DNA of 35,913 nucleotides from an uncultured Actinomycetes bacterium (GTDB lineage Bacteria; Actinomycetota; UBA4738; HRBIN12). Shown here in pieces: positions 116 to 32,184 of the stretch (positions are counted from its first letter, which is position 1; the number at the start of each line of letters is the position of its first letter). Made by a program: the position numbers and the translations under genes. The stretch is from positions 1 to 35,913 of the forward strand of contig CAZDXK010000001.1 in the NCBI GenBank assembly GCA_964509215.1. The letters are read 5' to 3'. Under the pieces are notes generated by a model. The model was not told the DNA's origin. It ran no database searches and was given only the letters and a program-made list of their open reading frames with translations.

Positions 116-955
116 TCACGAGGCATGGGAGGCCTCCGAACATGGAATGATTGCGTCGCGAAACTCGGTTTGACGCTTGCGTTGCTCCAGGAACTTCATG
201 CCCTCGGTGTGGCCGGCGTTGTGTGTGCCGTGCCGCAGCGCGATCAGGTCGAGATACTCCAGCACCTCATCCGCGATTTCAGGTTGGCGGGCGAAATATG
301 AGAACCGATGCCAGCCACGATCTCCAAGGGCCGCGCATCGGAACGCATCATGGGCGAGGAGGACCCGCTCCTGAACATAGGAGGCCCTCAGGAAGGTCTC
401 TTCTATGTTCGCCTGGGGAGGTGGAACGAAAACCGCGATGTTCGACGTCCCCTTGTCGTGCGGATTCCGCTTCAGCCAGCCGAGCTCGTCGAGTTTGATG
501 CGACTGAGGCGAACCGCGCATAGCGAGTGACCTGCTCTCATCGCGTGGGTCCGTAGGTCAAGCTTCATGTTCGCAACGCGGCCTCGCTCGAAAGCGATCG
601 AGAACGCTGCCTCGAGTGCGCGTCGAGCGCTTGCGAGCTCGAGCGGCCACGGTTCCCTGTCTACCTGTGCATAGATCGCCGCGAGCCGCTCAGTGGCTTC
701 ATACGGGGTCCACACGCGGGGTTCGTCCTTCGCGATCGCCGCGGCCTTCCGGGCGGTTCTCTCGGCGTAGTGGTGGGCGGCTTGAGATCCCCGCTCCACC
801 AAGATCCGCTCGTACTGGAGCGAGTGGTAGCCGTGCTTCGCGTGCCGTTTCGAGAGGGTTCGGACGATCGTCTGCTCGTCGTTCCCGAGGCAGACGAGCC
901 GCAACGCCCAGGTGAGGTCTTCGCTCAGATACCTGCCATCGTCGACTCGGCTCAT
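116..955 (-). CDS. hypothetical protein, possibly mobile-element associated (replication/primase-accessory-like); start uncertain (ATG 955 preferred over ATG 1072)
   Basis: Only long ORF with ordinary composition in the unique left flank (track ORF 116..1072). The first 39 codons are Arg/Gly/Pro-rich and look non-coding; the internal ATG at 955 is preceded by GGGAG. The segment LSEDLTWALRLVCLGNDEQTIVRTL...YAERTARKAAA weakly recalls helical modules of plasmid/phage replication proteins (memory only, unverified). Confidence 0.45.
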   Translation of the reverse strand: MSRVDDGRYLSEDLTWALRLVCLGNDEQTIVRTLSKRHAKHGYHSLQYERILVERGSQAAHHYAERTARKAAAIAKDEPRVWTPYEATERLAAIYAQVDREPWPLELASARRALEAAFSIAFERGRVANMKLDLRTHAMRAGHSLCAVRLSRIKLDELGWLKRNPHDKGTSNIAVFVPPPQANIEETFLRASYVQERVLLAHDAFRCAALGDRGWHRFSYFARQPEIADEVLEYLDLIALRHGTHNAGHTEGMKFLEQRKRQTEFRDAIIPCSEASHAS

Positions 956-2433: not shown

Positions 2434-2442
2434 TTTCCGGCC

Positions 2443-7766: not shown

Positions 7767-7791
7767 CCCCTCCCTCGGGTTGCGCAGCGGG

Positions 7792-12089: not shown

Positions 12090-14143
12090 CACGAAGCCTC
12101 CTCGATGACCAGGTTCCCCAGGTCGTCTACCTCGACGGTCTGTCCCGGAAGCACGAGCGTCGTCGCCGCAGGTTCCTCGACGACACACGGACCGTCGAGC
12201 CTCGTGGCCGTATCGAGCGCGCTGCGCTCCACCACCTCCGCTCTTCGGACGCCCCCGTGCTGGTCGAGATCGACGTCGCGTGGTCGGAGCGTGGGGGGCG
12301 CACCGGATCGGTGCGTCGTCCACGACAGGCGCTCTGCCGGTGCCGACACGCTCACACGAATGGCCACGATCTCCACCGGCGACGGCAAGCTGAACGCGTA
12401 CGCCTCTTCGGAGGCTCGGTCGAAGTCACTCCGCAACATGTCGAGCAGCGAGGCGTCCACCGCTCCCTCGCGAAGCGGCACCTCCAGCGTGTGCTCCTGC
12501 CCGACGTAGCGAAGGTGTGCGAACCGCTGGACATGTCGCGAGCCCGCCTCGTCCTCGATCTCTGCCGCCGCCTCACGCTCCAGCAGATCGAACAGCGGAG
12601 CGAGCGTGGCGGGGCTGAGTGCACCGACGTGGGTCCGGATGGCGTCGGCACCGAAGTCTCCGAGCAGCATGCCCAGCGCCGAGAAGTGCCCGGGCGCGGG
12701 CGGGATCACCGTTCGACGGATGCCGAGCTCTCGGGCGAGCAGCGAGGCGTGGAGCGGGCCGGCGCCGCCGTAGGCCACGAACGTGAAGTCCCGGGGGTCG
12801 AGGCCGCGACGGACGGTGACCAGCCGAAGCGCGTGCGCCATCTGCGCGACCGCGTATCGCAGAACCCCTCGAGCCGCCTCAGAACTATCGACACCGAGTT
12901 CCCCCCCGAGCTGCCGGAGCGCCTTGGACGCCGCCTCCATGTCGAGCTGCATCGCTCCACCTAAGAAGTACTCGGGGTCGAGGCGCCCGGCCACGAGGTT
13001 CGCGTCGGTAACGGTGGGCTCCGTCCCGCCACGGCCGTAACAAGCCGGACCGGGTTCGGCGCCTGAGCTTGTGGGTCCGACGTGGAGCCCGCCCGCGGCG
13101 TCGATCCATGCGATCGAACCACCGCCGGCGCCGATCTCCATCACCTCTACCACCGGCACCTGGACGGGGTACCCGGCGAAGGTCGGCGTACGTGCGATGT
13201 GGTGAGACGTGTCGATCCTCACTCGGCCGCCGCGCACCGCCGACGTCTTCGCGGTCGTGCCGCCGATGTCAAGCGACAGCACGTCGGATGTGCCGAGTCG
13301 GCGCCCCAGCTCCGCGGCCGCCGTCACGCCGGCGACGGGCCCGGACTCGAGGAGCGAGATCGGCGAGGCGAGCGCACGCTCGAACGACGAGACACCGCCG
13401 CTCGAACGCATGGCGTACAAGGGACCGATCAGGCCCGCTTGCCGAAGACGGGCGGTGAGCCCACCGAGGTAGTTGGCGACCACGGGCTTCACGTATGCGG
13501 CGAGGACGGCGGTGCTGCTGCGCTCGTACTCGCGCCACTGCGAGCTCACATGGTGAGAAGCGACGACCTCGACCTCCGGGAGGAGTTTCCCGATCAACTC
13601 CGCGGCTCGCCGTTCGTGGTCGGGGTTCGTCCACGCATGGAGGAAGCACACCGCGACCGCTTCGACTCCCGCATCGCGGAGGGCAGGAGCGAGCGCCTCG
13701 ACCTCGTCCTCGTTGAGAGGCACCAGCACCTCACCTCGATGCGTGATCCGTTCGCTTACCTCGAAGCGAAGACGACGCGGGACGAACGGGCGAGGCTTCG
13801 CGTACGAAAGGTTGTACAGGTCGGGCCGATTGGCCCGACCGATCTCGAGCACGTCGCGAAAGCCCAGGGTCGTGACGAGCGCTGTGAGCGCGCCCTTGCG
13901 CTCGGTGATCGCGTTGATGACGGCGGTGGTGCCGTGGACGAACCCGCCGACCCAGGCTGGATCGACGCCCGAATGTTTAATCGCCTCGATCACCCCTTCG
14001 TCGAGCCGGCCCGAGGTGGTCGGAACTTTCGCCAGCACGAGGCGGCCTGTGTCCCCATCGACGCCGGCGAGATCGGTGAACGTGCCGCCGATATCGACCG
14101 CGAGGCGCTGTCCGGATCTCGCGGGAGCGGTGGGCACCGACAC
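12089..14143 (-). CDS. hydantoinase A / oxoprolinase family protein (HyuA-like)
   Basis: 684 aa. LAVDIGGTFTDL and LSLDIGGTTAK motifs, length typical of Hydant_A_N + Hydantoinase_A proteins. GTG start at 14143. Confidence 0.9.
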   Translation of the reverse strand: MSVPTAPARSGQRLAVDIGGTFTDLAGVDGDTGRLVLAKVPTTSGRLDEGVIEAIKHSGVDPAWVGGFVHGTTAVINAITERKGALTALVTTLGFRDVLEIGRANRPDLYNLSYAKPRPFVPRRLRFEVSERITHRGEVLVPLNEDEVEALAPALRDAGVEAVAVCFLHAWTNPDHERRAAELIGKLLPEVEVVASHHVSSQWREYERSSTAVLAAYVKPVVANYLGGLTARLRQAGLIGPLYAMRSSGGVSSFERALASPISLLESGPVAGVTAAAELGRRLGTSDVLSLDIGGTTAKTSAVRGGRVRIDTSHHIARTPTFAGYPVQVPVVEVMEIGAGGGSIAWIDAAGGLHVGPTSSGAEPGPACYGRGGTEPTVTDANLVAGRLDPEYFLGGAMQLDMEAASKALRQLGGELGVDSSEAARGVLRYAVAQMAHALRLVTVRRGLDPRDFTFVAYGGAGPLHASLLARELGIRRTVIPPAPGHFSALGMLLGDFGADAIRTHVGALSPATLAPLFDLLEREAAAEIEDEAGSRHVQRFAHLRYVGQEHTLEVPLREGAVDASLLDMLRSDFDRASEEAYAFSLPSPVEIVAIRVSVSAPAERLSWTTHRSGAPPTLRPRDVDLDQHGGVRRAEVVERSALDTATRLDGPCVVEEPAATTLVLPGQTVEVDDLGNLVIEEAS

Positions 14144-14275
14144 GGCGTACTTATATCGCCCCTGAAGCGTCTCGGGCCACTCGAGGGGGATGCATGCCCG
14201 GAATCCCCTAGGGCGCAGAAGGCCAATGTACCGAAAAGGTGCTCTGGCCGAGAAGCGAGCGTCGCCTACTCTTCT

Positions 14276-14308
14276 GTCGCCGTCATCCTTCGGGATGACG
14301 GCGGCGAC
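14276..14308 (-). terminator. stem-loop downstream of the DUF1059-like gene (candidate tail-less intrinsic terminator or RNA-processing site)
   Basis: GTCGCCGTCATCC-TTCG-GGATGACGGCGGCGAC: 11 perfect bp closing a 4-nt loop, extendable with a 3-nt bulge. About 20 nt after the stop at 14325. No U-tract. Confidence 0.35.
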
Positions 14309-14324
14309 CTACCACTATTCGGCG

Positions 14325-14477
14325 CTACTCCTCTTTCGTGGTGGCCATGACCGCCTCGAAGTCGAGGTCCTCGCCCTGGTGGTGCTCCGCGACATGCTGC
14401 TCCGCTTTCGTCCTCAGCTCCTCCATCGTTTCGCCTCGTACGGTCATCCCGTCGGCGCAGTCGATCCGGTAGCCCAC
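14325..14477 (-). CDS. small DUF1059-like protein (50 aa)
   Basis: GTG at 14477 is preceded by GAAGGAGG with a 5-nt spacer. Product VGYRIDCADGMTVRGETMEELRTKAEQHVAEHHQGEDLDFEAV... resembles the DUF1059 small metal-binding protein pattern (C.d.G....get.eEl...a..H...H). The upstream part of track ORF 14325..14714 has no such support. Confidence 0.5.
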   Translation of the reverse strand: MGYRIDCADGMTVRGETMEELRTKAEQHVAEHHQGEDLDFEAVMATTKEE

Positions 14478-15039
14478 GTTCGCCTCCTTCGTCGCTCCGA
14501 CGACGAGCGTACCCCTCACAGCTACGTCTCGCAGACGCCCCGCCAGGGCTGACTCGGCTCGTCGGTCCGGCCAGCTTCGCGGTGCTCCTGGGGAATCGCA
14601 ATGATGCGTTCGCATCAGCTCCCCGACCCAGGAAAACGCTCCGGTGCGCGCCAGTGCGACGACGTCACTCCAGGGCGAGAGGGCCCACGATTTCATGCGA
14701 CTGTCCCAGGCCATTCACATCATGCATGCTCTCGGAGGACGAGGGACCGGGAAGAGGTGAAGAGCAACGATGTACATCGACTCCGATTGCACCGGTGCCA
14801 TGAAGTACGTCCGTGTGACGGACCCGACCGACAAGCGAACCTGGGAGGTTTGGTGCGAGCCTGGTAACGCCAGCTGGCCCTCGCAATCCGAGAGTCCGGG
14901 GATAAGAGATGGGTCGTTCAGAGCCCCGATGGCGCTAAGGAACCGATCGACATGGTCGGCTTGACGAAAAGAAGTGCTCTTGGGCAGGCTGGCCGTACTG
15001 CTTGGCGGCGAAGACGCTGCACATGAGGTTCTCGAGCTC

Positions 15040-15457
15040 TTCGAACCCCTACGACTTGATAGCGAGGGCTGCATCAGTCCCGACGCTACGACCAAGTCCC
15101 TGCCGCTGAGGGCGCGGATCGGAACCTCCAACCTCACCGACCTCGAGCACCGACTCCGCGCCGGAGATGCTCGCCGTGGGCCGGGAGCGCGCAGCCGACG
15201 CCGGCCTCGCCAACGTCGAGTTCGTTGCCCGCGACGCCGAGGAGCTCGAGTTCGACAGCCAGAGCTTCGACGCGGGGCTCAGCCGCGCCACCTCAATGTT
15301 CCTGCCGGACGTCGCAGGCGCGTTGAGCCCAGCAGCAAGGGCAACTGCCCCAGGCGGGCTTTCATTCAGGAGTCAGGCTTCCGGCCGGTCGTGTTGCAGT
15401 TGCGGCGCGGCCCCTTCAGGAGAAGGATTCGAGCGTGGACTCCCAGATACCAACTAG
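15040..15457 (+). pseudogene. decayed class I SAM-dependent methyltransferase
   Basis: Pieces sit in different frames: RLDSEGC (about VLDxGCG), DSAPEMLAVGRERAADAGLANVEFVARDAEELEFDSQSFDAG...APGG, then FIQESGFRPV. At least two frameshifts and an internal deletion between the PGG and GF motifs. Confidence 0.5.
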
Positions 15458-15521
15458 CACGCATGGAGGTGTGGCCGAGCGACGCTGACGATCGACGGCG
15501 ACCCAAATTGCGGAGGTGGAG

Positions 15522-15908
15522 ATGGAGCCGGTCGGACAGCTCGGGTGGATCCAGGTTGACTGCCGAGATCCCGTAGCTCTTGCCACTTTCTGGGGGGTAG
15601 TGCTCGGCCTCCAGGTCGACGACGACTACCTCGGCGATCCACCTCACTACGTGGGGCTTGCGGCGACGAACCCCGACCACCCCCAGGTGAACTTCCAGCG
15701 GGTCGCGGAGCCGAAGACCATGAAGAGCCCACTCCATTTCGACCTACGCGTGGACGACGTCGACAAGGCGACGGCCCGGATCGAGGCGCTGGGCGGCCTG
15801 CGGCTACAGGCAGAAGACGTCCACGAGTACGGCTACAACTGGCGTGTGATGGCCGATCCTGAGGGCAACGAGTTCTGTCTGATCTACGAGATTGCCGCAG
15901 CGTCCTAG
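15522..15908 (+). CDS. VOC-family (glyoxalase/bleomycin-resistance-like) protein
   Basis: LGWIQVDCRDPVALATFWGVVLG...HFDLRVDDVDKATARIEALGG...VMADPEGNEFCL is typical of the Glyoxalase-like/VOC fold. ATG 15522 is preceded by GGAGG with a 5-nt spacer (the track ORF starts at GTG 15516). Confidence 0.8.
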   Translation: MEPVGQLGWIQVDCRDPVALATFWGVVLGLQVDDDYLGDPPHYVGLAATNPDHPQVNFQRVAEPKTMKSPLHFDLRVDDVDKATARIEALGGLRLQAEDVHEYGYNWRVMADPEGNEFCLIYEIAAAS

Positions 15909-15954
15909 CCGTCCCTCGATCTACGGGAGTCAATCTGCGCCTACAGCCGATCCT

Positions 15955-16002
15955 TGGTGGGCGCTAGAGGATTTGAAACTCTGACCTCTTCCGTGTCAGG
16001 GA
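15955..16002 (-). other. tRNA-Val(GAC) 3' fragment (nt 29-73 plus encoded CCA), att-like direct repeat, degenerate
   Basis: Minus-strand reading TCCCTGACACGGAAGAGGTCAGAGTTTCAAATCCTCTAGCGCCCACCA matches the tRNA-Val at the window end. The exceptions are G53->T (which breaks the T-stem) and the presence of CCA. No 5' half is present. Confidence 0.8.
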
Positions 16003-16063
16003 GATGGGCCGCAGGTGTCTGAGCTGCACCTTCCCAGGTGAGGGACGAAGTCGACCGTCACAC

Positions 16064-16117
16064 GAGTACCGGAGAGTACCGTTGGGTTCGGTCGGCTCCT
16101 TGACCAGGTGTTGACCA
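16064..16117. repeat. short tandem direct repeats next to the tRNA-Val fragment (GAGTACCG x2, period 10; TTGACCA x2, period 11)
   Basis: cacGAGTACCGgaGAGTACCGtt at 16064-16081 and TTGACCAggtgTTGACCA at 16100-16117, read directly. Function unknown (recombinase arm-type sites are a speculation). Confidence 0.4.
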
Positions 16118-16292
16118 AACCAAGCGACCCAACGCCATCCAACTAGCTGCTAGTTCGACCCTCAGAGATCACCGGGACTGGGTGGGGTGGGCCCCTCGGG
16201 CGTGGCCGTTTCGTGGGCACGGGCGATCGCCTCGTGTCGACTGGGGGGTCGTTGTGACAACTGTCCGGTCGACTCGACAACCCCGCGGCGAG

Positions 16293-17375
16293 CTAGATAC
16301 CGAGTAGACCGAGCCGCTGCGCGAGGGCCGCCGCCTCCGCCCGCCGCTCCGCCCCCAGCTTCGCCAAGATGTTCGAGACGTGGGTCCCTACGGTCTTCGG
16401 GCTGATGAAGAGCTGATCCGCGATCTGCTTGTTCGTGCGCCCGGTCGCGACAAGCTGCAGGACTTCCAGCTCGCGCGCTGACAGACCAAGCTCGTCCGGA
16501 CTCACGCGCCGCGAGCGGGTCTGCGGGCTCGGAGGCAGGGTGAGGAGGAACCTGCGTACCTCGTCCACGATCGCGTCCTGGTCGCCCACCCACATCAGGT
16601 GGTCCACTCCGGGGAGCTCGACGTAGCGAGCCCCCTTGATCCCCTCCGCCAACGCGCGTCCCTGATGCACCGGAACGACCAGATCGCCGGTCCGATGAAG
16701 TACCAGGGTCGGTACTTCGATCCTGGGCAGCACGTCACCCCAATCGATCTGGTACCCCAGCTGCATCAGCGCACGAGCCGACCCGGGGCTCAGTCCCGAC
16801 CGGGTGAGCCGCAGGTACGCGGCAGTCGTTCGCTCGTCGGCCAAGAGGTTCGGCGCCCAGAACGCCGCACCGACGCCTTCGGTGCCCCACTCGTTCTCGA
16901 TCCTGTCGAGCGCCTCCTCCTCCGTGTTGGCCAGTCGGGAGAGCATGCCGGTCTCGGGCTCCAGCTTCGGGAACGTTCCGTACAGGATGAGTGCCACCGA
17001 GCGCTCGGGGTACGTGGCGGCGAACAGGCCGCACATCGCGCCACCTCCGAGCGTGCCGAACAGCACCGCGCGCTCGGAGCCGGCGGCGTCCATGACGACG
17101 CGGATGTCGTCCATGCGGTCGGGAAGGCTGGGGAGCCGGTCGGGGTCGACTCGATCCGATAGGCCCGTCCCGCGCTTGTCGAACAGGATCAGGCGCGAGA
17201 AGGAAGCGAGCCGCTCCAGGAAGCGTGCGAGCGGCGGGACCTCCCATGCCAGGTCCAGATGCGTGACCCATCCCGGCGAGAGGATCAGATCGACGGATCC
17301 CTCGCCCAGCACCTGATACGCGATGTTGAGACCGCCGCTCTTTGCATACTTCGTCCGAGGCCTCACAAGCCACAC
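16293..17375 (-). CDS. alpha/beta-hydrolase-fold domain (nucleophile Ser absent) fused to a C-terminal LuxR/FixJ-type HTH
   Basis: 360 aa. N-terminus NIAYQVLGEG..DLILSPGW...FDKRGTGLSDR is alpha/beta-hydrolase-like. The nucleophile elbow reads G-T-L-G-G instead of G-x-S-x-G. C-terminus LSARELEVLQLVATGRTNKQIADQLFISPKTVGTHVSNILAKLG is a canonical LuxR HTH. GTG start at 17375 (uncertain). Confidence 0.85.
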   Translation of the reverse strand: MWLVRPRTKYAKSGGLNIAYQVLGEGSVDLILSPGWVTHLDLAWEVPPLARFLERLASFSRLILFDKRGTGLSDRVDPDRLPSLPDRMDDIRVVMDAAGSERAVLFGTLGGGAMCGLFAATYPERSVALILYGTFPKLEPETGMLSRLANTEEEALDRIENEWGTEGVGAAFWAPNLLADERTTAAYLRLTRSGLSPGSARALMQLGYQIDWGDVLPRIEVPTLVLHRTGDLVVPVHQGRALAEGIKGARYVELPGVDHLMWVGDQDAIVDEVRRFLLTLPPSPQTRSRRVSPDELGLSARELEVLQLVATGRTNKQIADQLFISPKTVGTHVSNILAKLGAERRAEAAALAQRLGLLGI

Positions 17376-17423
17376 CCTATGTCGGGTGCGAGGGACCGTA
17401 CTCCGTCATGTTCCCTATGCCGG
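17376..17423. promoter_or_regulatory. divergent intergenic region with two copies of CCTATG(T/C)CGG (candidate operator); a third copy lies at 18114-18123
   Basis: CCTATGTCGG at 17376-17385, CCTATGCCGG at 17414-17423, CCTATGTCGG at 18114-18123. Also a TGCGG-TG-CCGCA inverted repeat near 17443-17454. Function is inferred only. Confidence 0.25.
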
Positions 17424-17522
17424 AATGCGGCGTCTTCCCGATTGCGGTGCCGCAGAGCCGGACCCACGATGGCACGTGACGCGTCGTCGTGGATCGAGAC
17501 CTATCGACAAGGAGGGATGGAT

Positions 17523-17750
17523 ATGCCGCTCATCAACGTGAAAGTGATCGAAGGCGTCTTCTCGGACGAGCAGAAGGGGGCGATCGTCCGAGGACTGACC
17601 GACGCCATGGTCGTGATCGAGGGCGAGAACATGCGGCCGGTCACGTGGTGCGTGATCGATGAGGTGCGCAGCGGTGACTGGGGCATCGGCGGCGATGCGC
17701 TGACGACCGACGCAGTGAAGAAGCTGGCAGCCGGCGTGCCGGTCGGCTGA
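17523..17750 (+). CDS. 4-oxalocrotonate tautomerase-family protein (75 aa)
   Basis: MPLINVKVIEGVFSDEQKGAIVRGLTDAMV...: catalytic Pro-1 context and beta-alpha-beta length typical of the tautomerase superfamily. AAGGAGGG lies upstream of ATG 17523. The longer track ORF (from 17259) is an unsupported extension. Confidence 0.85.
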   Translation: MPLINVKVIEGVFSDEQKGAIVRGLTDAMVVIEGENMRPVTWCVIDEVRSGDWGIGGDALTTDAVKKLAAGVPVG

Positions 17751-17855
17751 TCGCTCGATACCCGTCCGAGCAAGCCTGGGCATCCCTCCCCGCGAGACCC
17801 GGAGCCCGGATCGAGGCACGAAGCTTCATCGAATCACCGGGTGCCACCACGGAAG

Positions 17856-17887
17856 GAAGCCCGGAGCCCCTTGTGGCTCCGGGCTTC
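17856..17887 (+). terminator. strong GC hairpin between the tautomerase gene and the tRNA-Val fragment
   Basis: GAAGCCCGGAGCC-CCTTGT-GGCTCCGGGCTTC: 13 perfect bp with a 6-nt loop. No clear U-tract on either strand, so it could act in either direction. Confidence 0.4.
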
Positions 17888-17999
17888 TCATGCAGGGCTG
17901 ACGTTCGTCGGATTCGACAGCACGCGGCAGGATACATCCATGAGTCGCGTTTCTCGGCGCCTACTCACGTCCTTCATGACAGACCAACGGTTCTGCTTG

Positions 18000-18045
18000 T
18001 GGGCGCTAGAGGATTTGAACCTCTGACCTCTTCCGTGTCAGGGAA
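18000..18045 (-). other. tRNA-Val(GAC) 3' fragment (nt 28-73, no CCA); att-like repeat forming the right end of copy A
   Basis: 46 nt identical to 35860-35905. Beyond 18045 the sequence (caacggacc...) departs from the tRNA body (gcgctctc... at 35906). Confidence 0.85.
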
Positions 18046-18246
18046 CAACGGACCCCCTCTCTGAGCAGGCCGAAAACAGCATATCCCCTGCTCAGACCCC
18101 ATATCTAATAGAGCCTATGTCGGTGTAGTTCGATGTACGGACGAACAGTCCGTGGCAGAATCCAGGCAGAAAGCTAGTCGAAAAGACAGAATGCGGCTCC
18201 GTCAAGAACGCGGGCCGACCGCCGACGGAGATCAGGAGGTCGCTAC

Positions 18247-18411
18247 ATGTCGATTCAACTGTCCGAAGAAGCCTTCACGCTGCCGTACTTCCTGCGGGAG
18301 AGACTGGACCGCATGCATGAGCTGATCGACAGCGGTCCAGCTCGGGCGAAAGGGGAGCTTGCGGAAGCGAATGCTGAACTGGCCGAGTGGATCGGACCCG
18401 GCGTGCTCTAA
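18247..18411 (+). CDS. small hypothetical protein (54 aa) in the inter-copy spacer
   Basis: Below the ORF-track cutoff. ATG 18247 is preceded by AGGAGG with a 7-nt spacer. Product MSIQLSEEAFTLPYFLRERLDRMHELIDSGPARAKGELAEANAELAEWIGPGVL has balanced, helix-like composition. No family recognised. Confidence 0.4.
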   Translation: MSIQLSEEAFTLPYFLRERLDRMHELIDSGPARAKGELAEANAELAEWIGPGVL

Positions 18412-18500
18412 CGAGCTTGCGTGTGAGTGCTCACGCCGCCCGATGTTGTTCGCTGAACCAGCGGTCTTGCAACCGGGCTCGGTCGCGCTTTGCCTGCTTG

Positions 18501-18546
18501 TGGACCCACGGGGATTCGAACCCGGACCTATTGGCTGCCAGCCAAC
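18501..18546 (-). other. tRNA-Ala(GGC)-like 3' fragment (anticodon arm to discriminator), no 5' half
   Basis: Minus-strand reading GTTGG-CTGGCAG-CCAAT-AGGT-CCGGG-TTCGAAT-CCCCG-TGGGTCC-A: anticodon loop with GGC, a TTCGAAT T-loop, U70 compatible with Ala identity, and one T-stem mismatch. The upstream sequence has no D-arm or acceptor complement. Confidence 0.5.
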
Positions 18547-18592
18547 GCCGTGGGAGCACGCGTTCATCGTTTGCGCTGCTCAACGCCTCCCA

Positions 18593-18641
18593 TGTCCCTC
18601 CGTGTCCCTCAGCGCACGTTACTCCGTTCGTTACTCCGTTG
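18593..18641. repeat. short tandem direct repeats beside the tRNA-Ala-like fragment (TGTCCCTC x2, period 10; GTTACTCCGTT x2, period 12)
   Basis: caTGTCCCTCcgTGTCCCTCag at 18593-18610 and GTTACTCCGTTcGTTACTCCGTTg at 18618-18641, read directly. Function unknown. Confidence 0.45.
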
Positions 18642-19138
18642 GCAGTTCCCCACCGCAGGTCACGTCCCGTCAAGTGGTGTGTACGAGTCGCCGCGTCATC
18701 CTTGGTCCTCAGCTCGCCGCGACGCGCTCGGCGATCTCTTGTTGATCTACAGCAACCAGTCCTCGTCCGCGAGAAGCTCCATTCTGACCTCGCGTGGCTG
18801 GCCGGTTTGACGGTCCAGCGCGAGACTGCGGTGGCAGGGTACCGGTCGAATGCCCACGCTCAAGCAGTGCTCCGAGGTCAGATCTTCTCCTTCCTCGACG
18901 ACTTACGGAGTGGTGGTGCTAAGCCGGTTGAAAGGCTAACGGTAGCCGGTCGAAGGTCAGCACCTAGGGTCGGTTGAGCTTCCGGTTGCTGACTGGCTCG
19001 CTCTGGGGGCTGCGCCTCCAGAGCTACTGGGCTTTCAAGGTCAATGGGACTCAATTGACCGCTGAGCCAACGACCTACCCCCAGCCGACGACGATGCAGG
19101 AATCGCCCCGGGGCTAAGGTCGCGGTCAGCGCCCCGTC

Positions 19139-19717
19139 CTAGGCCCGGACGAATCGGGCGGAACCAAGAACGGGCGCGATGAGCGTCTCGTTCCCGTCTG
19201 TCCACTTGACCCGGTAGCTCACGCTCAAGTCGCCGTGGATGACTTGAAGAATTTCCCCCTCGCGGGGTTGGGAGCCAACCTTGGGGGATTCGATGACGAT
19301 GAGGTCGCCTCGCTTGGCTGGCATCGTCGTCGCGAGTGTGCGAGTTGCCGGCGTCGCGGTCTGCCCAGATGCCCTTGCGCCTCGGAGTGCAGGTCGTTTG
19401 GCCTGAGACGCGATTGGAGCTGAGCGACTCGCCGTGGCCCTCCTCGCTGTCGCCTTCTTGGCGATCGTCTTCTTCGCCATGACCTTCTTCGCGCTCTTCT
19501 TCCTGCCGGTGACCTTCCTCGCGACGGGCTTCTTGGCAATCGTCTTCTTGGCAGTCGTCTTGGCCGTGGTCTTCCTCGCAGTGGTCTTCCTCGGATTTGT
19601 CTTGCCAGGGGTCCTCCTCGCCGCGACCTTCCGGGCCGTCGACTTCTTCGCGCTGACCTTCCTTGCCGTCATCTTCTTGGTCGTTGTCTTCTTGGCAGTG
19701 GTCTTGTTCGCTGGCAC
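19139..19717 (-). CDS. Lys/Thr/Ala-rich basic tail + DUF1918-like domain protein (copy B)
   Basis: Translation identical to 1279..1857. Confidence 0.75.
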   Translation of the reverse strand: MPANKTTAKKTTTKKMTARKVSAKKSTARKVAARRTPGKTNPRKTTARKTTAKTTAKKTIAKKPVARKVTGRKKSAKKVMAKKTIAKKATARRATASRSAPIASQAKRPALRGARASGQTATPATRTLATTMPAKRGDLIVIESPKVGSQPREGEILQVIHGDLSVSYRVKWTDGNETLIAPVLGSARFVRA

Positions 19718-19900
19718 GGTTCCCCTCCTGGCGCTAACAGCCGCATCGAGAGACTACTCCCCTTGGTACTCCTCGAAGCATGCTCGGGGCGGTCGGGAGT
19801 AGGTGAGTCCTGTCCTGAACGCCTCGTTCCGAGCGGTGCCATGCTGCCCGTCGAACTGAGCCAGGTAGGATCAGGCCGAGAAGGCGACAAGAGGCTCTTA

Positions 19901-20293
19901 TTAAGATCCTTCACGGTGTGAAACCAGCACCTAGGACGGATCGACCTGCGCACTAACCCTAGCCCCGATGTTCACGGCCAGGCCGCCGATCTTGCCGTTA
20001 TGGTCGTGACTTCCCCGGTGTGGAGACCTGTTCGGTGACGGGAAGGCTCGACATCTTCTGATCCACCCGTCTGACGAGCTCGCGGAGATCGTCGGCGACG
20101 TAGGTGGGACGCACCTCCGACGCCGCGAGCTCCTCCTTGGTCGACACCCCGTCAGCACGAGCAGGGAGTCCCAGCCGTCGTGGGAGTGACTTCGTATGCG
20201 TCCCACTGAGCCGGGCTGCGCTTGGCGCCGGTACGCTGGCGTCCGACACCATCCCTGGAAGTTGGTGAAGATTACCCAACTGCGCGACCTCAA
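19901..20293 (-). pseudogene. decayed class III nucleotidyl cyclase domain (copy B)
   Basis: Identical to 2041..2433. Confidence 0.45.
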
Positions 20294-20302
20294 TTTCCGG
20301 CC

Positions 20303-21268
20303 TCAAACGCCCAGCACATCCTCCGCACGGTGGCAGGACACGGTTCGGCCCGGTTCGACTTCCCGCAGCTGCGGCACCTCGACCCGACAACGGTCGACCG
20401 CGAGCTTGCACCGCGGATGGAAGGGGCACCCGAGTGGCGGGTCGGCTGGATCGGGGACGTTGCCCGGCAGCACCACGCGCGACCGGCGTGCCGCCAGATC
20501 GATCTCTGGTACTGCCGACCTGAGCGCCACCGTGTACGGGTGCGCCGGCCGGGCCAGCACTTCCTCCGTCGGCCCCTGCTCCACGATCTTCCCGAGGTAT
20601 AGGACCGCGGTCTCCTCGCAGAGCTGCTCCACAACCGCAAGGTTGTGGGACACGAGCACGTAGGCGAGCCCGCGTTCCTTGCGCAGCTTCCCGATCAGCT
20701 CGAGGATCCGCGCCTGCACGGTCACGTCGAGCGCGCTCGTCGGCTCGTCCAGCACCAGCACCCGCGGCTCCACCGATAGGGCGCGGGCGATCGCGACTCG
20801 CTGGCGCTGCCCGCCTGATAGCTGATGTGGGTACCGCCCCGCGAAACCATCCGCCAGCCCCACCTCGGCCAACAGCGACTCAACCCTTCCCGGGATGTCC
20901 GCCTTGGGCACGATCCCGTGCGCGCGCAGCGGCTCTGCCACCGCCGCGCCGATCCGCACACGTGGGTCCAGGCTCGTCGTCGGATCCTGGAACACGATCT
21001 GCACGGTTCGCCGGTACGCGCGCAGCTCACCGCCGCGCAGGCGCAGCACGTCCTGCCCCCCCAGCCGGATCGAGCCTCCCTCGGCATGAACCAGCCGCAG
21101 GAGCGCGCGAGCGATGGTCGTCTTGCCCGACCCACTCTCCCCCACGAGCCCGAGCCCGAACGGGCCAATCGGCAACGAGAACGACACCCCGTCCACGGCG
21201 CGCACAAGCCCGAACCGGACATGAAGGTCCTCGACCTCCAGGAGCGGGGCGCCGGCGCTATCGGTCAT
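20303..21268 (-). CDS. ABC transporter ATP-binding protein (OppF/DppF-like), copy B
   Basis: Translation identical to 2443..3408. Confidence 0.9.
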   Translation of the reverse strand: MTDSAGAPLLEVEDLHVRFGLVRAVDGVSFSLPIGPFGLGLVGESGSGKTTIARALLRLVHAEGGSIRLGGQDVLRLRGGELRAYRRTVQIVFQDPTTSLDPRVRIGAAVAEPLRAHGIVPKADIPGRVESLLAEVGLADGFAGRYPHQLSGGQRQRVAIARALSVEPRVLVLDEPTSALDVTVQARILELIGKLRKERGLAYVLVSHNLAVVEQLCEETAVLYLGKIVEQGPTEEVLARPAHPYTVALRSAVPEIDLAARRSRVVLPGNVPDPADPPLGCPFHPRCKLAVDRCRVEVPQLREVEPGRTVSCHRAEDVLGV

Positions 21269-22074
21269 CGAGGGCCCGGCCCCCCGATCCTGGGCACCGC
21301 CGCCACGAGCTCCCTCGTGTAGACGTGCCGCGGTTCGCCGAGCACCCGGGGCGTCGATCCTTCCTCGACGATCCGCCCCGCCCGCATCACCGCAAGGCGG
21401 TCGCAGAGCTCCGAGATCACCGCGAGGTCGTGGGTGATGAACAGCACGCTCATCCCCCGCTCGTCGCGGAGCCGGCGGAGCAGCTCCAGGATCTCGGCCT
21501 GCACCGTGACGTCGAGCGCGCTCGTGGGCTCGTCGGCGAGGAGCACCTCCGACCGGAGCGCGACCGCCATCGCGATGACCACACGCTGCGCCTGCCCACC
21601 GGAGAGCTGGTGGGGGTACCGCACCAGCAGCTCCGGTGAGAGCAGCACCGAGCGGAGCGCTTCGGCGGAGCGCTCGCGCGCCTGTTCACGGGAGGCGCCG
21701 TGCACCCGCAGCGTCCGCTCGAACAGCTCGCCCACACGGGTGAGCGGGTCGAGCGAGGCCACCGGGCTCTGGAAGATCGCCGCAATGCGGCTGCCACGGA
21801 TCTGGCGCAACCGATGCTCCGGGGCGCCGACGAGCTCCTCCCCGTCGAGCCGGATGCTCCCCTCGACCGTCGCCCCGAGCGTTCCGGCCAGCCCCAGCAC
21901 GGCCAGCGACGTCATCGATTTCCCCGAGCCGCTCTCGCCGGCGAGTCCCAAGATCTCGCCGGCTCTCAGGTCGAGCCGCTCCAGCTCCACCACGCGTCGC
22001 TCGCCGAACCGGATCCGCAGGTCGCGCACTCCGAGCCGCGGTTCGCGTGCGGCTGTTGGCGTCGCGTCGCTCAT
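21265..22074 (-). CDS. ABC transporter ATP-binding protein (OppD/DppD-like), copy B
   Basis: Identical to 3405..4214. Confidence 0.9.
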   Translation of the reverse strand: MSDATPTAAREPRLGVRDLRIRFGERRVVELERLDLRAGEILGLAGESGSGKSMTSLAVLGLAGTLGATVEGSIRLDGEELVGAPEHRLRQIRGSRIAAIFQSPVASLDPLTRVGELFERTLRVHGASREQARERSAEALRSVLLSPELLVRYPHQLSGGQAQRVVIAMAVALRSEVLLADEPTSALDVTVQAEILELLRRLRDERGMSVLFITHDLAVISELCDRLAVMRAGRIVEEGSTPRVLGEPRHVYTRELVAAVPRIGGPGPR

Positions 22075-23000
22075 CGCGACAGTACCCGCCTCGGGTCCAG
22101 GATCTCCCGGAGCCCGTCGCCGAGCAGGTTGAACGCCACCGCGGTGAGGAAGATCGCCGCGCCCGGGAACGTCCCTAACCACCAGTGGGTGGTGAAGAAT
22201 GACAGACCCTGACTCACCATGAGGCCCCAGTCCGGGGTGGGATCCTGCGCACCGAGCCCCAGGAACGACAACGCGGAAGCCGTCAGGATCACGCCACCCA
22301 CGTCCGACGAAACCTGGACGATCACCGGGGTGATGGAGTTCGGCAGGATGTGCCGCAAGAGGATCCGGCGGTGCGGGATGCCCAGGGCCCGAGCGCTTTC
22401 CACGAACGGGCGCCCAGCAACCGAAGCGGCCTGCCCGCGAACGAGCCGCGTGTACCAGGGCCACCAGGTGATCGCGATGGCAATCACCGTCGTGCCGAGC
22501 GAGGGCGTGAGGACCGCCGCGAACGCGAGCGCCAGAAGCAAGGCCGGAAAAGCCAGGAACACGTCGGTCACTCGCATGATGGTCTCGTCCACGATCCCAC
22601 CGAAGTAGCCGGCTACGGTCCCGAGCGGCACGCCGACCACGGTCGAGATCACCAGCACCAGCACCGCGATCGTCGGTGAGATGCGAGCGCCGTAGATCAC
22701 GCGCGACAGGACGTCCCTCCCCACCTGATCCGTGCCGAACGGATGCTGGAGCGAGGGCGAGAGCAGGATCTGGCTCGGGTGTGTGGCGCTTCCCGCGTCC
22801 TCCGGGAACGGCGCGAGCAATGGCGCGAGCAACGCCACCAGGACGATCAGCAGGGATAGCCCGGCGCCCCACGCGAGGAGCGGGTTCCGCCGGAATCCCG
22901 CGACGACGTCCCGCCACCGTCCGGGCGGTCTCGGCTCCGCACCTCGTTCCTCGATAACGGCGACCGCGCCGTCGTGGGCTCGTACCGGTTCGTCGGCCAT
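22071..23000 (-). CDS. ABC transporter permease (DppC-like), copy B
   Basis: Identical to 4211..5140. Confidence 0.85.
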   Translation of the reverse strand: MADEPVRAHDGAVAVIEERGAEPRPPGRWRDVVAGFRRNPLLAWGAGLSLLIVLVALLAPLLAPFPEDAGSATHPSQILLSPSLQHPFGTDQVGRDVLSRVIYGARISPTIAVLVLVISTVVGVPLGTVAGYFGGIVDETIMRVTDVFLAFPALLLALAFAAVLTPSLGTTVIAIAITWWPWYTRLVRGQAASVAGRPFVESARALGIPHRRILLRHILPNSITPVIVQVSSDVGGVILTASALSFLGLGAQDPTPDWGLMVSQGLSFFTTHWWLGTFPGAAIFLTAVAFNLLGDGLREILDPRRVLSR

Positions 23001-24016
23001 CAGCTCAGCCGGATCCTCGGGTCGATGAGAGCCTGGATCACGTCGACCAGCGTGTTCCCCACGACGTAGACGATTGCCACGAAGAGCGTCACGCCGACGA
23101 TCGCCGGGGTATCGAGTGCCGACACGGCGTCGGCCGCGTAGCTTCCGAGGCCCGGTCGGTTGAAGATCGCCTCGACCAGGAAGGCGTTCACGATCGAGTA
23201 CGCGAAGACGAGTGCGAGGATCGCCAACACCGGGTTCCACACATGTCGGAGGGCGAATCGCCCGAACACGCTCCGCTCGGAGAATCCCAGCGCGCGAACC
23301 ATGCGGATGTGGTCCTCCCCGACCGTGTCGAGGACGGAGGCCCGGACCATCCTCGTGATCACACCGAAGGGATAGGCCGCGATCACGACGGCCGGGAGGA
23401 CGAGGTGCTGGAGGGTGCTCCAGAGCACCGGCCAGTTCCCGGTGATCAGCGAGTCGATCACCGGCATGTTGGTGATGCTCCGGAGCGGACTCGTGTAGTC
23501 GAGGTCCGGGGCGTAGGTCCCCGCCACCGGCAACACCCGGAGCCACTGGAAGAACACGAGCTGGAGGATCAGCGCCAACCAGAACGAGGGCATGGACACT
23601 CCGAACACCGCGCCCAGGCGCGCGAGGAAGTCGGGGGCACGTCCCTTCCACCGCGCCGACACCAGCCCCAGTGGGACACCGACCACCAGGGCAAGGATCA
23701 ATGCGGCGGCCACCAGCTCGATCGTCGCCGGCGCCCTCCGGGCGATGTCGGTGAGCACGGGGCGACGCGTCCGGAGCGACACCCCCCAGTCGCCTGAGGC
23801 GACCCCTCCGAGGTAGGCCACGATCTGAACGGGCATCGGTCGGTCGAGCCCGAGCTCATCGCGCGCTTGCTTCACCTGCTCGGGGCGGGCGCGCGGGCCC
23901 GCCCATGTGGCCGCCGGGTCGCCCGGGACCACGCGGGCGATCACGAACGTCAGGACCACCACCCCCACCACCACGAGCGCGGCGAGAGCGACGCGACGGA
24001 CGAGGTAGCGGCTCAC
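23000..24016 (-). CDS. ABC transporter permease (DppB-like), copy B
   Basis: Identical to 5140..6156. Confidence 0.9.
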   Translation of the reverse strand: MSRYLVRRVALAALVVVGVVVLTFVIARVVPGDPAATWAGPRARPEQVKQARDELGLDRPMPVQIVAYLGGVASGDWGVSLRTRRPVLTDIARRAPATIELVAAALILALVVGVPLGLVSARWKGRAPDFLARLGAVFGVSMPSFWLALILQLVFFQWLRVLPVAGTYAPDLDYTSPLRSITNMPVIDSLITGNWPVLWSTLQHLVLPAVVIAAYPFGVITRMVRASVLDTVGEDHIRMVRALGFSERSVFGRFALRHVWNPVLAILALVFAYSIVNAFLVEAIFNRPGLGSYAADAVSALDTPAIVGVTLFVAIVYVVGNTLVDVIQALIDPRIRLS

Positions 24017-25626
24017 GCCGCCGGCGTCAGCTCATAGCCGAAGACCACGTTCGGGTAGGCGGGGTCGTCCACGAACCCCTGCACCGAATCGAGCATCGCC
24101 CGCTGGTATACCTGCGTGTACAGGGGGATCGCCGGGTCGTCCTCGTACAGCGTCTCCTGCATCCGAACGTACATCTGGCTCGCCGCATCACGATCGGTGG
24201 CCGCGACCACCGAGGCCTCGTCGATCTGCGCGTCGAGCTCCGGGTTCGAGTAGTAGGACAGATTGAAGAACGGCTCCTGCTCGGTGCGGAACAGGTTGAA
24301 GAACCACGACACCGGGTCGGGATAATCCGGCCACCAATAGAAGATGAAGATGTCCTGGCGCTCGGCGGGGTTCGCCGACTTCCCTTTGTCCCACTGCGTC
24401 TGCCATTGGTACCCGCGAACTTGCAGATCGACGTTCAGGTCGGCGAGGTTCGACTTCATGAGGGTCGCCACGGTCTCCTCGTCGGCGTCGCCCTTCAGGT
24501 AGGTGAGCTCGAGCTTGAGCGGCTGGCCGCCGGGGCCGTAGCCCGCCTCCGCGAGAAGCTCGGTGGCGAAGGCCTGGTCGTACTCGTAGCCGGAGAGGTC
24601 ATCGGAGTGGCCCCAGAGCCCCGGTGGGATGACGCCCACGAGCGGGTCGGCCGCGCCCTGGAGGGCCTGGATGATTCCGTCGTAGTCGATCCCGTACGCG
24701 ATCGCCTCGCGCACGCGGTCGTCGGCGAGCGGACCGTCACTCGTGTTCAGCAGCCCGAAAAGCGTCTGCCACGAAGGTGCGGTCGTCGTCTCGAATCCTT
24801 CCTGGCCCTCGAACGATGCCCACAGCTGCGGACTCATCCGCTGGACCATCGTGACCTCGCCGGCACGAAGCAGCTGCGCGGCGGTGGACGCTTCCGGCGT
24901 CACGCGGAACACGTAACGCTCGTAGTGGTCGCCGTCCCATCCCCCCCAGTAGTCGGGGTAAGCCTCCATCCGAAGCTCGATCTCCTCGCCGGGATTGAAC
25001 TCAGTGGCGGTGTACGGGCCGGTGCCGGCGTCGTTCCCCTCCGCGAACCACTCCCCGAGGTCGGCCCCGCCCGCGGCCTCCGTGTCGTAGATGAACGCGG
25101 AGTACGTGCCGGACGCCACCAGGTCGAGCGGCGACGGGTACGCCAACTTGAACACGAGCGTCCGCTCGTCCGGCGTCTGGATCTTCTTGACGGCCCCCCA
25201 GATGTACGCGGCACCCTGCCCGAGCTCCATCGTCCGTTCGATCGCCGCCTTCGCAGCCTCGGCGGTGAGCGCGCGTCCCGAGTGGAATGTCACGCCGTCG
25301 CGCAGCGAGAAGGTCCACGTGAGGCCGTCGGCTGAGGGCTCCCAGCTCTCCGCGAGCAGCGGCTCCACTTGCTGGGTCGCCGAGTCGTATCGCGTGAGGG
25401 TTTCGTAGAGGTTGTGCATCGCGATGACCTCGTTCGAGTACCCCGTTGCGGGGTCCCAGCCGATCATGACCTCGGAGGTCACCGAGTAGGTGAACGTCTG
25501 CGGCCCGGCCTGCCCGGACGGCTGCGGACTGGGACCCTCACCCCCCGCGCCCTCGCAGGCCACGGCAACCAGCGCCAGCACCGCCAGCGCCGCGATACAG
25601 CGTTCCCGGATCCGGATCATCGCCAT
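24013..25626 (-). CDS. family-5 ABC substrate-binding protein, copy B
   Basis: Identical to 6153..7766. Confidence 0.9.
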   Translation of the reverse strand: MAMIRIRERCIAALAVLALVAVACEGAGGEGPSPQPSGQAGPQTFTYSVTSEVMIGWDPATGYSNEVIAMHNLYETLTRYDSATQQVEPLLAESWEPSADGLTWTFSLRDGVTFHSGRALTAEAAKAAIERTMELGQGAAYIWGAVKKIQTPDERTLVFKLAYPSPLDLVASGTYSAFIYDTEAAGGADLGEWFAEGNDAGTGPYTATEFNPGEEIELRMEAYPDYWGGWDGDHYERYVFRVTPEASTAAQLLRAGEVTMVQRMSPQLWASFEGQEGFETTTAPSWQTLFGLLNTSDGPLADDRVREAIAYGIDYDGIIQALQGAADPLVGVIPPGLWGHSDDLSGYEYDQAFATELLAEAGYGPGGQPLKLELTYLKGDADEETVATLMKSNLADLNVDLQVRGYQWQTQWDKGKSANPAERQDIFIFYWWPDYPDPVSWFFNLFRTEQEPFFNLSYYSNPELDAQIDEASVVAATDRDAASQMYVRMQETLYEDDPAIPLYTQVYQRAMLDSVQGFVDDPAYPNVVFGYELTPAA

Positions 25627-25651
25627 CCCCTCCCTCGGGTTGCGCAGCGGG

Positions 25652-32168: not shown

Positions 32169-32184
32169 CTACCACTATTCGGCG

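What the first reader, a model, noticed from the sequence alone, without database searches (positions are those of the whole stretch)
18046..19043. The inter-copy spacer resembles an orphan att region
The spacer begins right after the tRNA-Val fragment with a locally AT-richer stretch and two hairpins: CTGAGCAGG...CCTGCTCAG at 18061-18095, and ACGGAC-gaaca-GTCCGT at 18137-18153.

It contains a 54-aa ORF with a near-perfect AGGAGG-N7-ATG (18247-18411), followed by a 46-nt tRNA-Ala(GGC)-like 3' half (18501-18546). On the plus strand the Ala-like and Val fragments are both preceded by the same CTGCTTG, so in tRNA sense both are followed by CAAGCAG (17993-18002 versus 18494-18503).

About 50-100 bp beyond the Ala-like core lie two sets of tandem 8-12-mers (18593-18641). 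Similar period-10/11 repeats lie beside the internal tRNA-Val fragment (16064-16117). A core with nearby short direct repeats is how attP arm-type sites are organised.

This may be the remnant of a second integrative element family that targets tRNA 3' ends and shares a downstream flank.
Basis: partly seen in the sequence, partly recalled or inferred. Interest (0 to 1): 0.6.

Follow-up and report, generated by a model that had tools for sequence, protein, structure and literature searches.

The report
Relic integration site in a duplicated island
The 998-bp spacer between two near-identical 16.9-kb copies is a patchwork of dead mobile-element ends, including one arm of an attachment site for a tRNA-targeting integrase whose gene sits elsewhere in the same genome; it is a well-documented but ordinary kind of genomic scar.

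Summary
The att reading holds and is now tied to a specific integrase family.

- **Ala-like fragment.** 18501-18546 matches the 3' part of this genome's real tRNA-Ala(GGC) on contig C221.
- **Arm beside it.** The ~100 nt at 18547-18646, with its two pairs of direct repeats, is conserved in three congeneric MAGs. It is also the integrase-distal arm of 8.9-kb elements in three metagenome contigs. Those elements have the layout core, integrase gene, cargo, arm, core.
- **Link to an integrase.** Tandem GAGTAAC-N5-GAGTAAC occurs only twice in the 2.3-Mb assembly. One copy is in this arm. The other lies between tRNA-Ala(GGC) and a 370-aa tyrosine integrase on C221.
- **One family, several targets.** Relatives of that integrase (65-88% identity) sit beside tRNA-Ala(GGC), tRNA-Val(GAC) and Val(CAC)-type cores.
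- **Shared CAAGCAG trailer.** It is not a general tRNA feature.

The spacer has no integrase and no integrase-side arm, so it is a relic. The 54-aa ORF has no homologue anywhere. An IS21-family end relic lies at 18914-18976.

The parts
17996..18045 (-). tRNA-Val(GAC) 3' fragment 'a' at the end of copy 1. It runs from the anticodon stem to the discriminator, encodes no CCA, and is followed by the trailer CAAGCAG.
   Evidence: The same sequence at 35856-35905 completes the real tRNA-Val at the contig end.
18046..18100 (.). Spacer side of the Val-core junction, with a perfect 10-bp inverted repeat at 18060-18069 / 18087-18096. It carries GCTCAGA about 20 nt from the core, as the conserved Val-type arms do.
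   Evidence: The ARAGORN tRNA call here is a pseudo-structure.
18247..18411 (+). 54-aa orphan ORF with AGGAGG-N7-ATG.
   Evidence: No family hit. No homologue in 293 genomes or in 5.8 billion proteins. Codon-position GC is 0.69/0.42/0.69.
18494..18500 (-). CAAGCAG trailer after the Ala-like core, identical to the trailer after Val fragment 'a'.
18501..18546 (-). tRNA-Ala(GGC) 3' core, from the anticodon stem to the discriminator. Against the real gene it has one G missing in the T stem and one G-to-T change, and it lacks the CCA.
18547..18646 (-). Integrase-distal att arm. In tRNA sense it carries GGAGTAACGAAC x2 (plus strand 18617-18640) and GAGGGACA(C/T)G x2 (plus strand 18590-18609).
   Evidence: Repeats. 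Conserved in G007, G008 and G009. Same arm in L055-L057 next to the distal core of integrase-gene-bearing elements. The motif pair is unique to this arm and to the C221 integrase-side arm in the genome.
18914..18976 (+). Relic of the IstB-proximal terminus of an IS21-family insertion sequence, with two copies of GCCGGTyGAA(A)GG. Weaker similarity may continue towards 19043.
   Evidence: 83-90% identity to multi-copy ends in G029 and G036. IstB_IS21 lies directly inside that end in G029.
19000..19024 (.). GC-rich hairpin: 11-bp arms, 91% complementary, with a 3-nt loop.
   Evidence: Two independent Logan contigs of run SRR6868923 break here.
15953..16117 (-). Context: internal tRNA-Val fragment 'b' (with CCA) plus the conserved Val-type arm, which carries TGGTCAA x2 and GGTACTC x2 in tRNA sense.
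   Evidence: The arm is conserved in 8 sites of 7 genomes, with conservation starting sharply about 115 nt from the core.
116..955 (-). Context: 279-aa gene in the left flank. Its homologues lie inside integrative elements.
   Evidence: A homologue lies three genes after an integrase at tRNA-Ala(GGC) in L037. Another lies after an HTH_17 gene in L038.

Best explanation
The spacer is a patchwork of mobile-element scars at the distal end of an integrase-less island that sits in a tRNA-Val(GAC) integration array.

Its centre, 18501-18646, is an attR-type relic. It consists of the integrase-distal arm and the tRNA-Ala(GGC) 3' core of an integrative element. That element belongs to a family defined by a lambda-type tyrosine integrase, one copy of which lies next to the real tRNA-Ala(GGC) on contig C221 of the same genome.

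**Shown**
- The arm is the same arm that closes integrase-gene-bearing elements elsewhere.
- Its two repeat motifs recur in the integrase-side arms of the family.

**Inferred**
- The paired repeats (period 12 and period 10) are arm-type binding sites for the integrase N-terminal domain and an accessory protein.
- Strand exchange happens in the anticodon-loop part of the core.

The integrase-side arm blocks and the integrase gene are missing here, and the core carries three changes. The site is therefore most likely inactive. At most it could act as a weak secondary substrate for the C221 integrase.

The rest of the spacer is a Val-core junction, an orphan ORF and an IS21-family end relic.
For: - **Core.** It matches the real tRNA-Ala(GGC), and it starts at the anticodon stem as the Val fragments do.
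- **Arm conservation.** The arm is 70-80% identical over its 100 nt in five other sequences. It reaches 92-93% over 70 nt to L055-L057. Conservation begins abruptly about 100 nt from the core.
- **Whole elements.** L055-L057 show core, integrase-side arm, integrase gene, about 7.5 kb of cargo, this arm, core.
- **Motif link.** GAGTAAC-N5-GAGTAAC occurs only in this arm and beside the C221 integrase in 2.3 Mb. GAGTAAC itself occurs 31 times.
- **Shared integrase-side blocks.** C221, L052, L053, L054 and L055 share CTCAAGTCCCTC(C), the reverse complement of the arm's GAGGGAC motif. The Ala and Val(CAC) members also share GGAGTAAC-type pairs.
- **Integrase.** The C221 protein has catalytic and core-binding domains, plus about 70 N-terminal residues with no Pfam match.
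- **Family targets.** Relatives at 88% identity sit at tRNA-Ala(GGC). Relatives at 79-80% sit at tRNA-Val(GAC). Relatives at 65% sit at Val(CAC)-type cores.
- **No RNA structure.** The covariation term in the arm is -0.19.
- **Independent assembly.** Logan contigs reproduce the spacer and its junction with copy 2.
Against: - No integrase or integrase fragment lies in the window.
- The sequence after the Ala core lacks the family's integrase-side blocks, so no complete attP is present.
- The integrase is frameshifted in all three reference contigs L055-L057. The clearest architecture therefore comes from decaying copies.
- The assignment of the repeats as protein-binding sites is an inference. 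No binding data exist.
- In G008 and G009 the arm abuts cores that diverge after the anticodon loop. The arm is thus often found at degenerate sites.
- How an Ala-type site came to lie inside a tRNA-Val array is unexplained.
Confidence: 0.8

Rival explanations
1. The spacer is the live attachment region of a 17.9-kb integrase-less composite element (one copy plus the spacer). The element carries two cores, Ala and Val, side by side. It is mobilised in trans by a C221-type integrase, and the two copies are a tandem accretion at tRNA-Val.
For: - The 17,861-bp unit is bounded by a Val core on one side.
- Reading across the spacer gives distal arm, Ala core, 455 bp, Val core, then the start of an integrase-side arm that resembles L053.
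- Integrases of one family serve both Ala(GGC) and Val(GAC).
- Tandem junctions and stacked integrations are described for tRNA-targeting elements (bioRxiv 10.1101/2020.12.28.424599). Accretion of integrase-less elements is reviewed in PMC5704250 (abstract seen only).
Against: - The left copy is joined to unrelated DNA at 1182/1183, with no spacer and no core.
- The integrase-side arm after Val fragment 'a' keeps only about 20 nt of family similarity.
- The Ala core is damaged.
- No circular junction or read depth could be examined.
Confidence: 0.12
2. The copy-spacer-copy layout is an assembly-graph loop, not one chromosome. The real structure would be one chromosomal copy plus a second molecule or strain variant in which the spacer joins the ends of that copy.
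For: - This is a short-read MAG of 509 contigs, yet it holds a 16.8-kb repeat inside one contig.
- The copies are 100% identical from 1227 to 18045. Both differences lie in the first 44 nt, at 1200 and 1226. That is what walking one graph node twice would give.
- The spacer and its junction with copy 2 are found in Logan contigs of SRR6868923. The left-flank gene was not found there as an exact product.
Against: - Topology alone cannot separate a true tandem duplication from a chromosome plus a circle.
- Both spacer junctions are real sequence, as shown by an independent assembly.
- This rival concerns the duplication only. It leaves the att reading of the spacer intact.
Confidence: 0.4
3. The Ala-like piece is just a decayed tRNA-Ala pseudogene left from an old tRNA gene cluster, and the repeats beside it are chance.
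For: tRNA genes cluster at this locus in relatives, as Gly-Cys-Val. The core carries three defects relative to the real gene.
Against: - The 5' half is replaced by an arm that recurs next to different cores (Ala and Val(CAC)) in other genomes. The same arm recurs in integrase-gene-bearing elements.
- The repeat pair is unique in the genome, apart from the integrase-side arm on C221.
Confidence: 0.03

Closest known systems
Lambda-type tyrosine-integrase elements that integrate into tRNA 3' ends (for example actinomycete integrative elements such as pSAM2, and mycobacteriophages L5 and Ms6; recalled from my own knowledge)
   Same: The core equals the tRNA 3' part, from the anticodon stem to the end. 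The arms flanking the core carry short paired direct repeats. The integrase gene lies directly downstream of the restored tRNA (C221, L052-L054).
   Different: In the spacer only the distal arm and core remain. The same arm is found with three different tRNA cores. The relic lies inside an array anchored on a different tRNA (Val-GAC).
Tycheposon-type genomic islands of Prochlorococcus (bioRxiv 10.1101/2020.12.28.424599)
   Same: Islands next to tRNA genes are built by repeated integration. Partial tRNAs and degenerate elements are scattered through them, and some subpopulations show tandem repeat junctions.
   Different: The host is a different phylum (uncultured Actinomycetes MAGs), and relatedness of the integrases was not tested. 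Here the integrase-less islets keep highly conserved arms across species.
Cis-mobilizable elements and accretion of integrative elements in streptococci (review PMC5704250, found, abstract seen only; details from my own knowledge)
   Same: Segments bounded by att sites but lacking an integrase sit in tandem at one integration site. In principle they can be moved by an integrase supplied in trans.
   Different: No mobility evidence exists here. The sites are tRNA-derived and of mixed identity (Val and Ala).
IS21-family insertion sequences
   Same: 18914-18976 matches the IstB-proximal terminus, with its two repeated sub-terminal sites.
   Different: Only about 60-130 nt survive. There is no istA or istB and no second end.

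Membership tests
tRNA-targeting tyrosine-integrase integrative element (att site) | Core identical or nearly identical to the 3' part of a tRNA gene of the host | tested here: met
   18501-18546 against tRNA-Ala(GGC) on C221: 92.7% over 55 nt, with 22 of 22 from T-arm to acceptor.
tRNA-targeting tyrosine-integrase integrative element (att site) | Arm with repeated short motifs that recur in the partner arm next to the integrase gene | tested here: met
   The GAGTAAC-N5-GAGTAAC pair occurs only in the spacer arm and the C221 integrase-side arm. GAGGGAC recurs, inverted, as CTCAAGTCCCTC in all integrase-side arms.
tRNA-targeting tyrosine-integrase integrative element (att site) | The same arm closes elements that carry an integrase gene and are bounded by two direct core repeats | tested here: met
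   L055-L057: two Val(CAC)-type cores about 8.9 kb apart, an integrase gene at one end and this arm at the other. The integrase is frameshifted there.
tRNA-targeting tyrosine-integrase integrative element (att site) | Integrase gene and integrase-side arm present at this locus (a complete element or attP) | tested here: not met
   No Phage_integrase hit and no tblastn trace in the window. The integrase-side blocks are absent after the Ala core. Hence a relic, not an element.
tRNA-targeting tyrosine-integrase integrative element (att site) | Recombination activity (integration or excision) | not testable with these tools
Cis-mobilizable (integrase-less, att-flanked) element | Segment bounded by two att cores in direct orientation without its own integrase | tested here: met
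   The 2-kb islet 16003-17995 lies between Val fragments b and a. The segment 19044-33812 plus the spacer lies between Val fragments. No integrase is present.
Cis-mobilizable (integrase-less, att-flanked) element | Mobilisation by an integrase supplied in trans | not testable with these tools
   No reads or experiments were available.
IS21 family | Terminal repeats plus istA and istB | tested here: not met
   Terminal repeats are present, but there are no genes and no second end. It is a relic only.

The most novel reading that the evidence does not exclude
One copy plus the spacer (17,861 bp) is a functioning integrase-less composite element. Its attachment region carries two tRNA cores, Ala(GGC) and Val(GAC). 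A single integrase family supplied in trans could then place it at either tRNA gene, and the window would have caught it in tandem accretion. More broadly, the sharply conserved arms at integrase-less islets across this genus would mark a tRNA-anchored cassette-exchange system.
Probability: 0.12. Interest if true: 0.6.

Novelty: new member of a known kind. Interest (0 to 1): 0.35.

Why it matters
It documents, in uncultured soil Actinomycetes, an integrase family whose members are 65-88% identical. They keep the same arm architecture but sit at three different tRNA cores: Ala-GGC, Val-GAC and Val-CAC.

That makes a natural series for asking which residues and core bases set the target choice of tyrosine integrases. 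It also explains why partial tRNAs of mixed identity accumulate in one island.

For annotation, it shows that ARAGORN calls at such junctions (17999-18070 here, and 'tRNA-Ser' in L055) are artefacts. For this window itself the result is mostly housekeeping: the spacer is a scar, not a gene or a new system.

Tried and rejected
- **Read depth and junction support.** The duplication therefore remains untested.
- **Rfam scan of 15700-19400.** No tRNA or other family.
- **Pfam, NCBIfam and PHROGs on spacer ORFs.** Nothing.
- **Homologues of the 54-aa ORF.** None.
- **Similarity between the left flank and the spacer.** None beyond the first 48 nt of the repeat. The left flank is not a diverged spacer.
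- **Integrase pseudogene in the window.** None.
- **Tyrosine integrase inside tRNA-Val islets.** None in the nine relatives scanned whose islet positions are known, nor in this window.
- **Arm pattern in other collections.** None in viral contigs or metagenome contigs. In 185,579 species genomes only the three congeners have it.
- **IS21 relic as a complete miniature element.** No inverted second end was found.
- **C221 and the spacer as two ends of one element.** Rejected. Every path from the arm leads into the repeat and then to tRNA-Val or back to the spacer, never to C221.
- **G005 integrase (40% identity).** It sits beside a tRNA-Ala core but has different arm repeats. It adds no support.
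- **Mechanism of the duplication.** I considered unequal site-specific exchange, re-integration of a circle, IS-mediated events and filler DNA. None fits all junctions without a second event.

Full report
**Layout of the window**

The window is the whole of contig C1 of a 2.3-Mb, 509-contig MAG that is 76% complete. A 16,863-bp repeat occupies 1183-18045 and 19044-35905. The spacer is 18046-19043.

The contig ends 8 nt after copy 2. Those 8 nt, together with the end of copy 2, match the D-arm and 3' part of the real tRNA-Val(GAC) seen in relatives.

Each copy contains, from left to right:
- 14.8 kb of metabolic and transport genes: a DUF1918/histone-like gene, an Opp/Dpp-type ABC transporter and hydantoinase/oxoprolinase genes;
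- an internal tRNA-Val 3' fragment 'b' with CCA, at 15953-16002;
- a 2-kb islet with a LuxR/hydrolase fusion and a tautomerase;
- a terminal tRNA-Val 3' fragment 'a' without CCA, at 17996-18045.

No integrase lies in the window.

**Checking the observation**

All listed features are present.
- **Base composition.** GC falls to 0.535-0.55 at 18000-18300.
- **First hairpin.** It is a perfect 10-bp inverted repeat with z = -4.5.
- **Second hairpin.** It is marginal, with z = -2.1.
- **ORF.** The 54-aa ORF has AGGAGG-N7-ATG.
- **Ala-like piece.** 18501-18546 matches the real tRNA-Ala(GGC) on contig C221. BLAST gives 92.7% over 55 nt, and the 22 nt from T-arm to acceptor are identical. There is one missing G in the T stem, one G-to-T change, and no CCA.
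- **Direct repeats.** They lie at 18590-18609 (period 10) and 18617-18640 (period 12).
- **ARAGORN call.** The whole 'tRNA-Val' at 17999-18070 has a poor acceptor stem. Rfam does not find it. It is a fragment joined to unrelated DNA.

**The shared trailer**

CAAGCAG follows Val fragment 'a' and the Ala fragment, but none of the other tRNA genes called in this assembly. The pattern T-loop + 13 nt + CAAGCAG occurs in only one of 120 other genomes of the family. That case, G014:C25, is again a tRNA 3' fragment. Its continuation, CAAGCAGAAGCGCTGGTC, resembles the one after fragment 'a', CAAGCAGAACCGTTGGTC.

**What the arm is**

The ~100 nt on the 5' side of the Ala core (18547-18646) are conserved in three congeneric MAGs: G007, G008 and G009. 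Conservation starts abruptly about 100 nt from the core, and unrelated cargo genes lie beyond it. No other species among 185,579 has the arm pattern.

Within this genome, GAGTAAC-N5-GAGTAAC occurs exactly twice. One copy is in this arm. The other is on C221, between the 3' end of the real tRNA-Ala(GGC) and the GTG start of a 370-aa tyrosine integrase.

I then searched metagenome contigs with that integrase and found six relatives:
- **L052 (88% identity)** lies directly after a tRNA-Ala(GGC).
- **L053 and L054 (79-80%)** lie directly after a tRNA-Val(GAC).
- **L055-L057 (65%)** lie after a Val(CAC)-type core.

In L055-L057 a second copy of the core lies about 8.9 kb away. Immediately before that second core is the spacer-type arm, at 92-93% identity over 70 nt. 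This gives the complete architecture: core, integrase-side arm, integrase gene, cargo, distal arm, core.

The integrase-side arms of all members share CTCAAGTCCCTC(C), the reverse complement of the distal arm's GAGGGAC repeat. They also carry a pair of GGAGTAAC-type motifs, which read GGAGTCAC in the Val(GAC) members.

The integrase is frameshifted in L055-L057. Those copies are decaying, but their ends are intact.

A consensus fold of four arms shows no covariation. A structured RNA is therefore not supported, although four sequences make a weak test.

**Reading of the spacer**

The centre of the spacer is an attR-type relic, meaning distal arm plus core, of this element family. The sequence after the Ala core lacks the integrase-side blocks, and no integrase is present. 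It is therefore neither a complete attP nor an element.

The same arm abuts a Val(CAC)-like core in G007 and L055-L057. In G008 and G009 it abuts Ala-type cores that diverge just after the anticodon loop. That pattern fits strand exchange near the anticodon loop, which is my inference.

The remaining parts of the spacer are:
- **Junction with Val fragment 'a'.** It carries GCTCAGA about 20 nt from the core, as the conserved Val-type arms do.
- **54-aa ORF.** It has no homologue in 293 genomes of the order or in 5.8 billion proteins.
- **IS21-family end relic at 18914-18976.** It is homologous to the IstB-proximal terminus of multi-copy IS21-family elements in G029 and G036.

**Context**

The Val-type arm beside fragment 'b' (16003-16117) is conserved in 8 sites of 7 genomes from two genera, with invariant TGGTCAA and GGTACTC pairs. 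Islets of 1.7-5.4 kb lie between the real tRNA-Val and that arm. Where I looked, the islet content differs: G017 has only a 46%-identical hydrolase in the opposite orientation. None of the nine relatives scanned whose islet positions are known has a tyrosine integrase in the islet, and neither does this window.

The start of the trailer after fragment 'a' resembles the start of the integrase-side arm of the Val(GAC) members L053 and L054. The Val and Ala sites in this window therefore belong to sister lineages of one family, not to two unrelated families.

The left flank (1-1182) encodes a 279-aa protein. One homologue lies three genes after an integrase at a tRNA-Ala(GGC) (L037). Another lies after an HTH_17 gene (L038). 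The left flank is thus also mobile-element DNA.

**The duplication**

The two copies differ only at 1200 (one base extra in copy 1) and at 1226 (C against G). Both lie within the first 44 nt, and the remaining 16.8 kb are identical.

Independent Logan contigs of run SRR6868923 reproduce the spacer (17999-19019). They also reproduce its junction with copy 2 (19011-20212).

The graph topology allows either a true tandem arrangement or one chromosomal copy plus a circle made of one copy and the spacer. I leave this open at roughly 60:40 in favour of a real duplication or accretion. This question does not affect the att reading.

**Comparison with known systems and verdict**

The site works like the attachment sites of lambda-type tyrosine integrases that target tRNA 3' ends. 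The island resembles tRNA-anchored islands built by repeated integration, as described for tycheposons (bioRxiv 10.1101/2020.12.28.424599). It also resembles integrase-less att-flanked elements that accrete in tandem (PMC5704250; abstract seen only).

It is a new member of a known kind. Interest is modest.

Noticed in passing
window 16003-16117 and 33863-33977; L014, L015, L023-L026: The arm beside the internal tRNA-Val fragment is conserved (74% mean column identity, with many invariant columns including both repeat pairs) in 8 sites of 7 genomes from two genera. Islets of 1.7-5.4 kb lie between it and the real tRNA-Val. No scanned islet holds a tyrosine integrase. The arm is better conserved than neighbouring genes.
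   Followed up: partly
window 1200 and 1226 versus 19061 and 19086: The only two differences between the 16.9-kb copies lie within the first 44 nt of the repeat. The remaining 16.8 kb are identical. This fits one assembly-graph node walked twice, or a very recent event with a fuzzy boundary.
   Followed up: partly
window 116-955 (-): A 279-aa protein with no family assignment. Its homologues (45-64% identity) occur in integrative elements. One lies three genes after an integrase at tRNA-Ala(GGC) (L037) and another after an HTH_17 gene (L038). It may be a replication or regulatory module.
   Followed up: partly
window 18914-18976; L046-L049, L051: Relic of an IS21-family terminus with two GCCGGTyGAAAAGG-type sites. 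Full copies with IstB occur several times in two genomes of other families of the same order.
   Followed up: yes
G000 contig C221 (L041) 1440-2724: Real tRNA-Ala(GGC) followed by an arm and a 370-aa tyrosine integrase. This is an integrated element of the family discussed here. The contig is too short to show its far end.
   Followed up: partly
G000 contig C64 (L042) 2976-4671: A second phage-type integrase (377 aa) lies next to tRNA-Gly(GCC). In relatives that tRNA heads the Gly-Cys-Val cluster, so the whole tRNA cluster may be an integration hot spot.
   Followed up: no
L055-L057 (Ga0137372_10001988, WNGF01006980.1, WNGE01004682.1): The same 8.9-kb element appears in three metagenome contigs. 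Its integrase is frameshifted in all three, yet both att ends are intact. ARAGORN miscalls its distal junction as a 92-nt tRNA-Ser(CGA).
   Followed up: partly
L011 (G007:C10:384000-400000), L012 (G008:C255): Fragments of several different tRNAs (Ala, Asn-like, Met, Val-CAC-like) lie within a few kb of each other. They bracket single cargo genes such as an octopine-dehydrogenase-like gene and a nitroreductase. Mixed-identity partial-tRNA arrays are common in this genus.
   Followed up: partly
L016 (G006:C85) 7975-9838: A 95%-identical copy of the LuxR/hydrolase-tautomerase islet exists in another species. It keeps only the last 8-9 nt of the tRNA-Val core and lacks the distal arm.
   Followed up: no
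G000 contig C329 1480-1569: ARAGORN reports a 90-nt 'tRNA-Val(gac)' inside GC-rich sequence that looks protein-coding. It is probably a false call.
   Followed up: no
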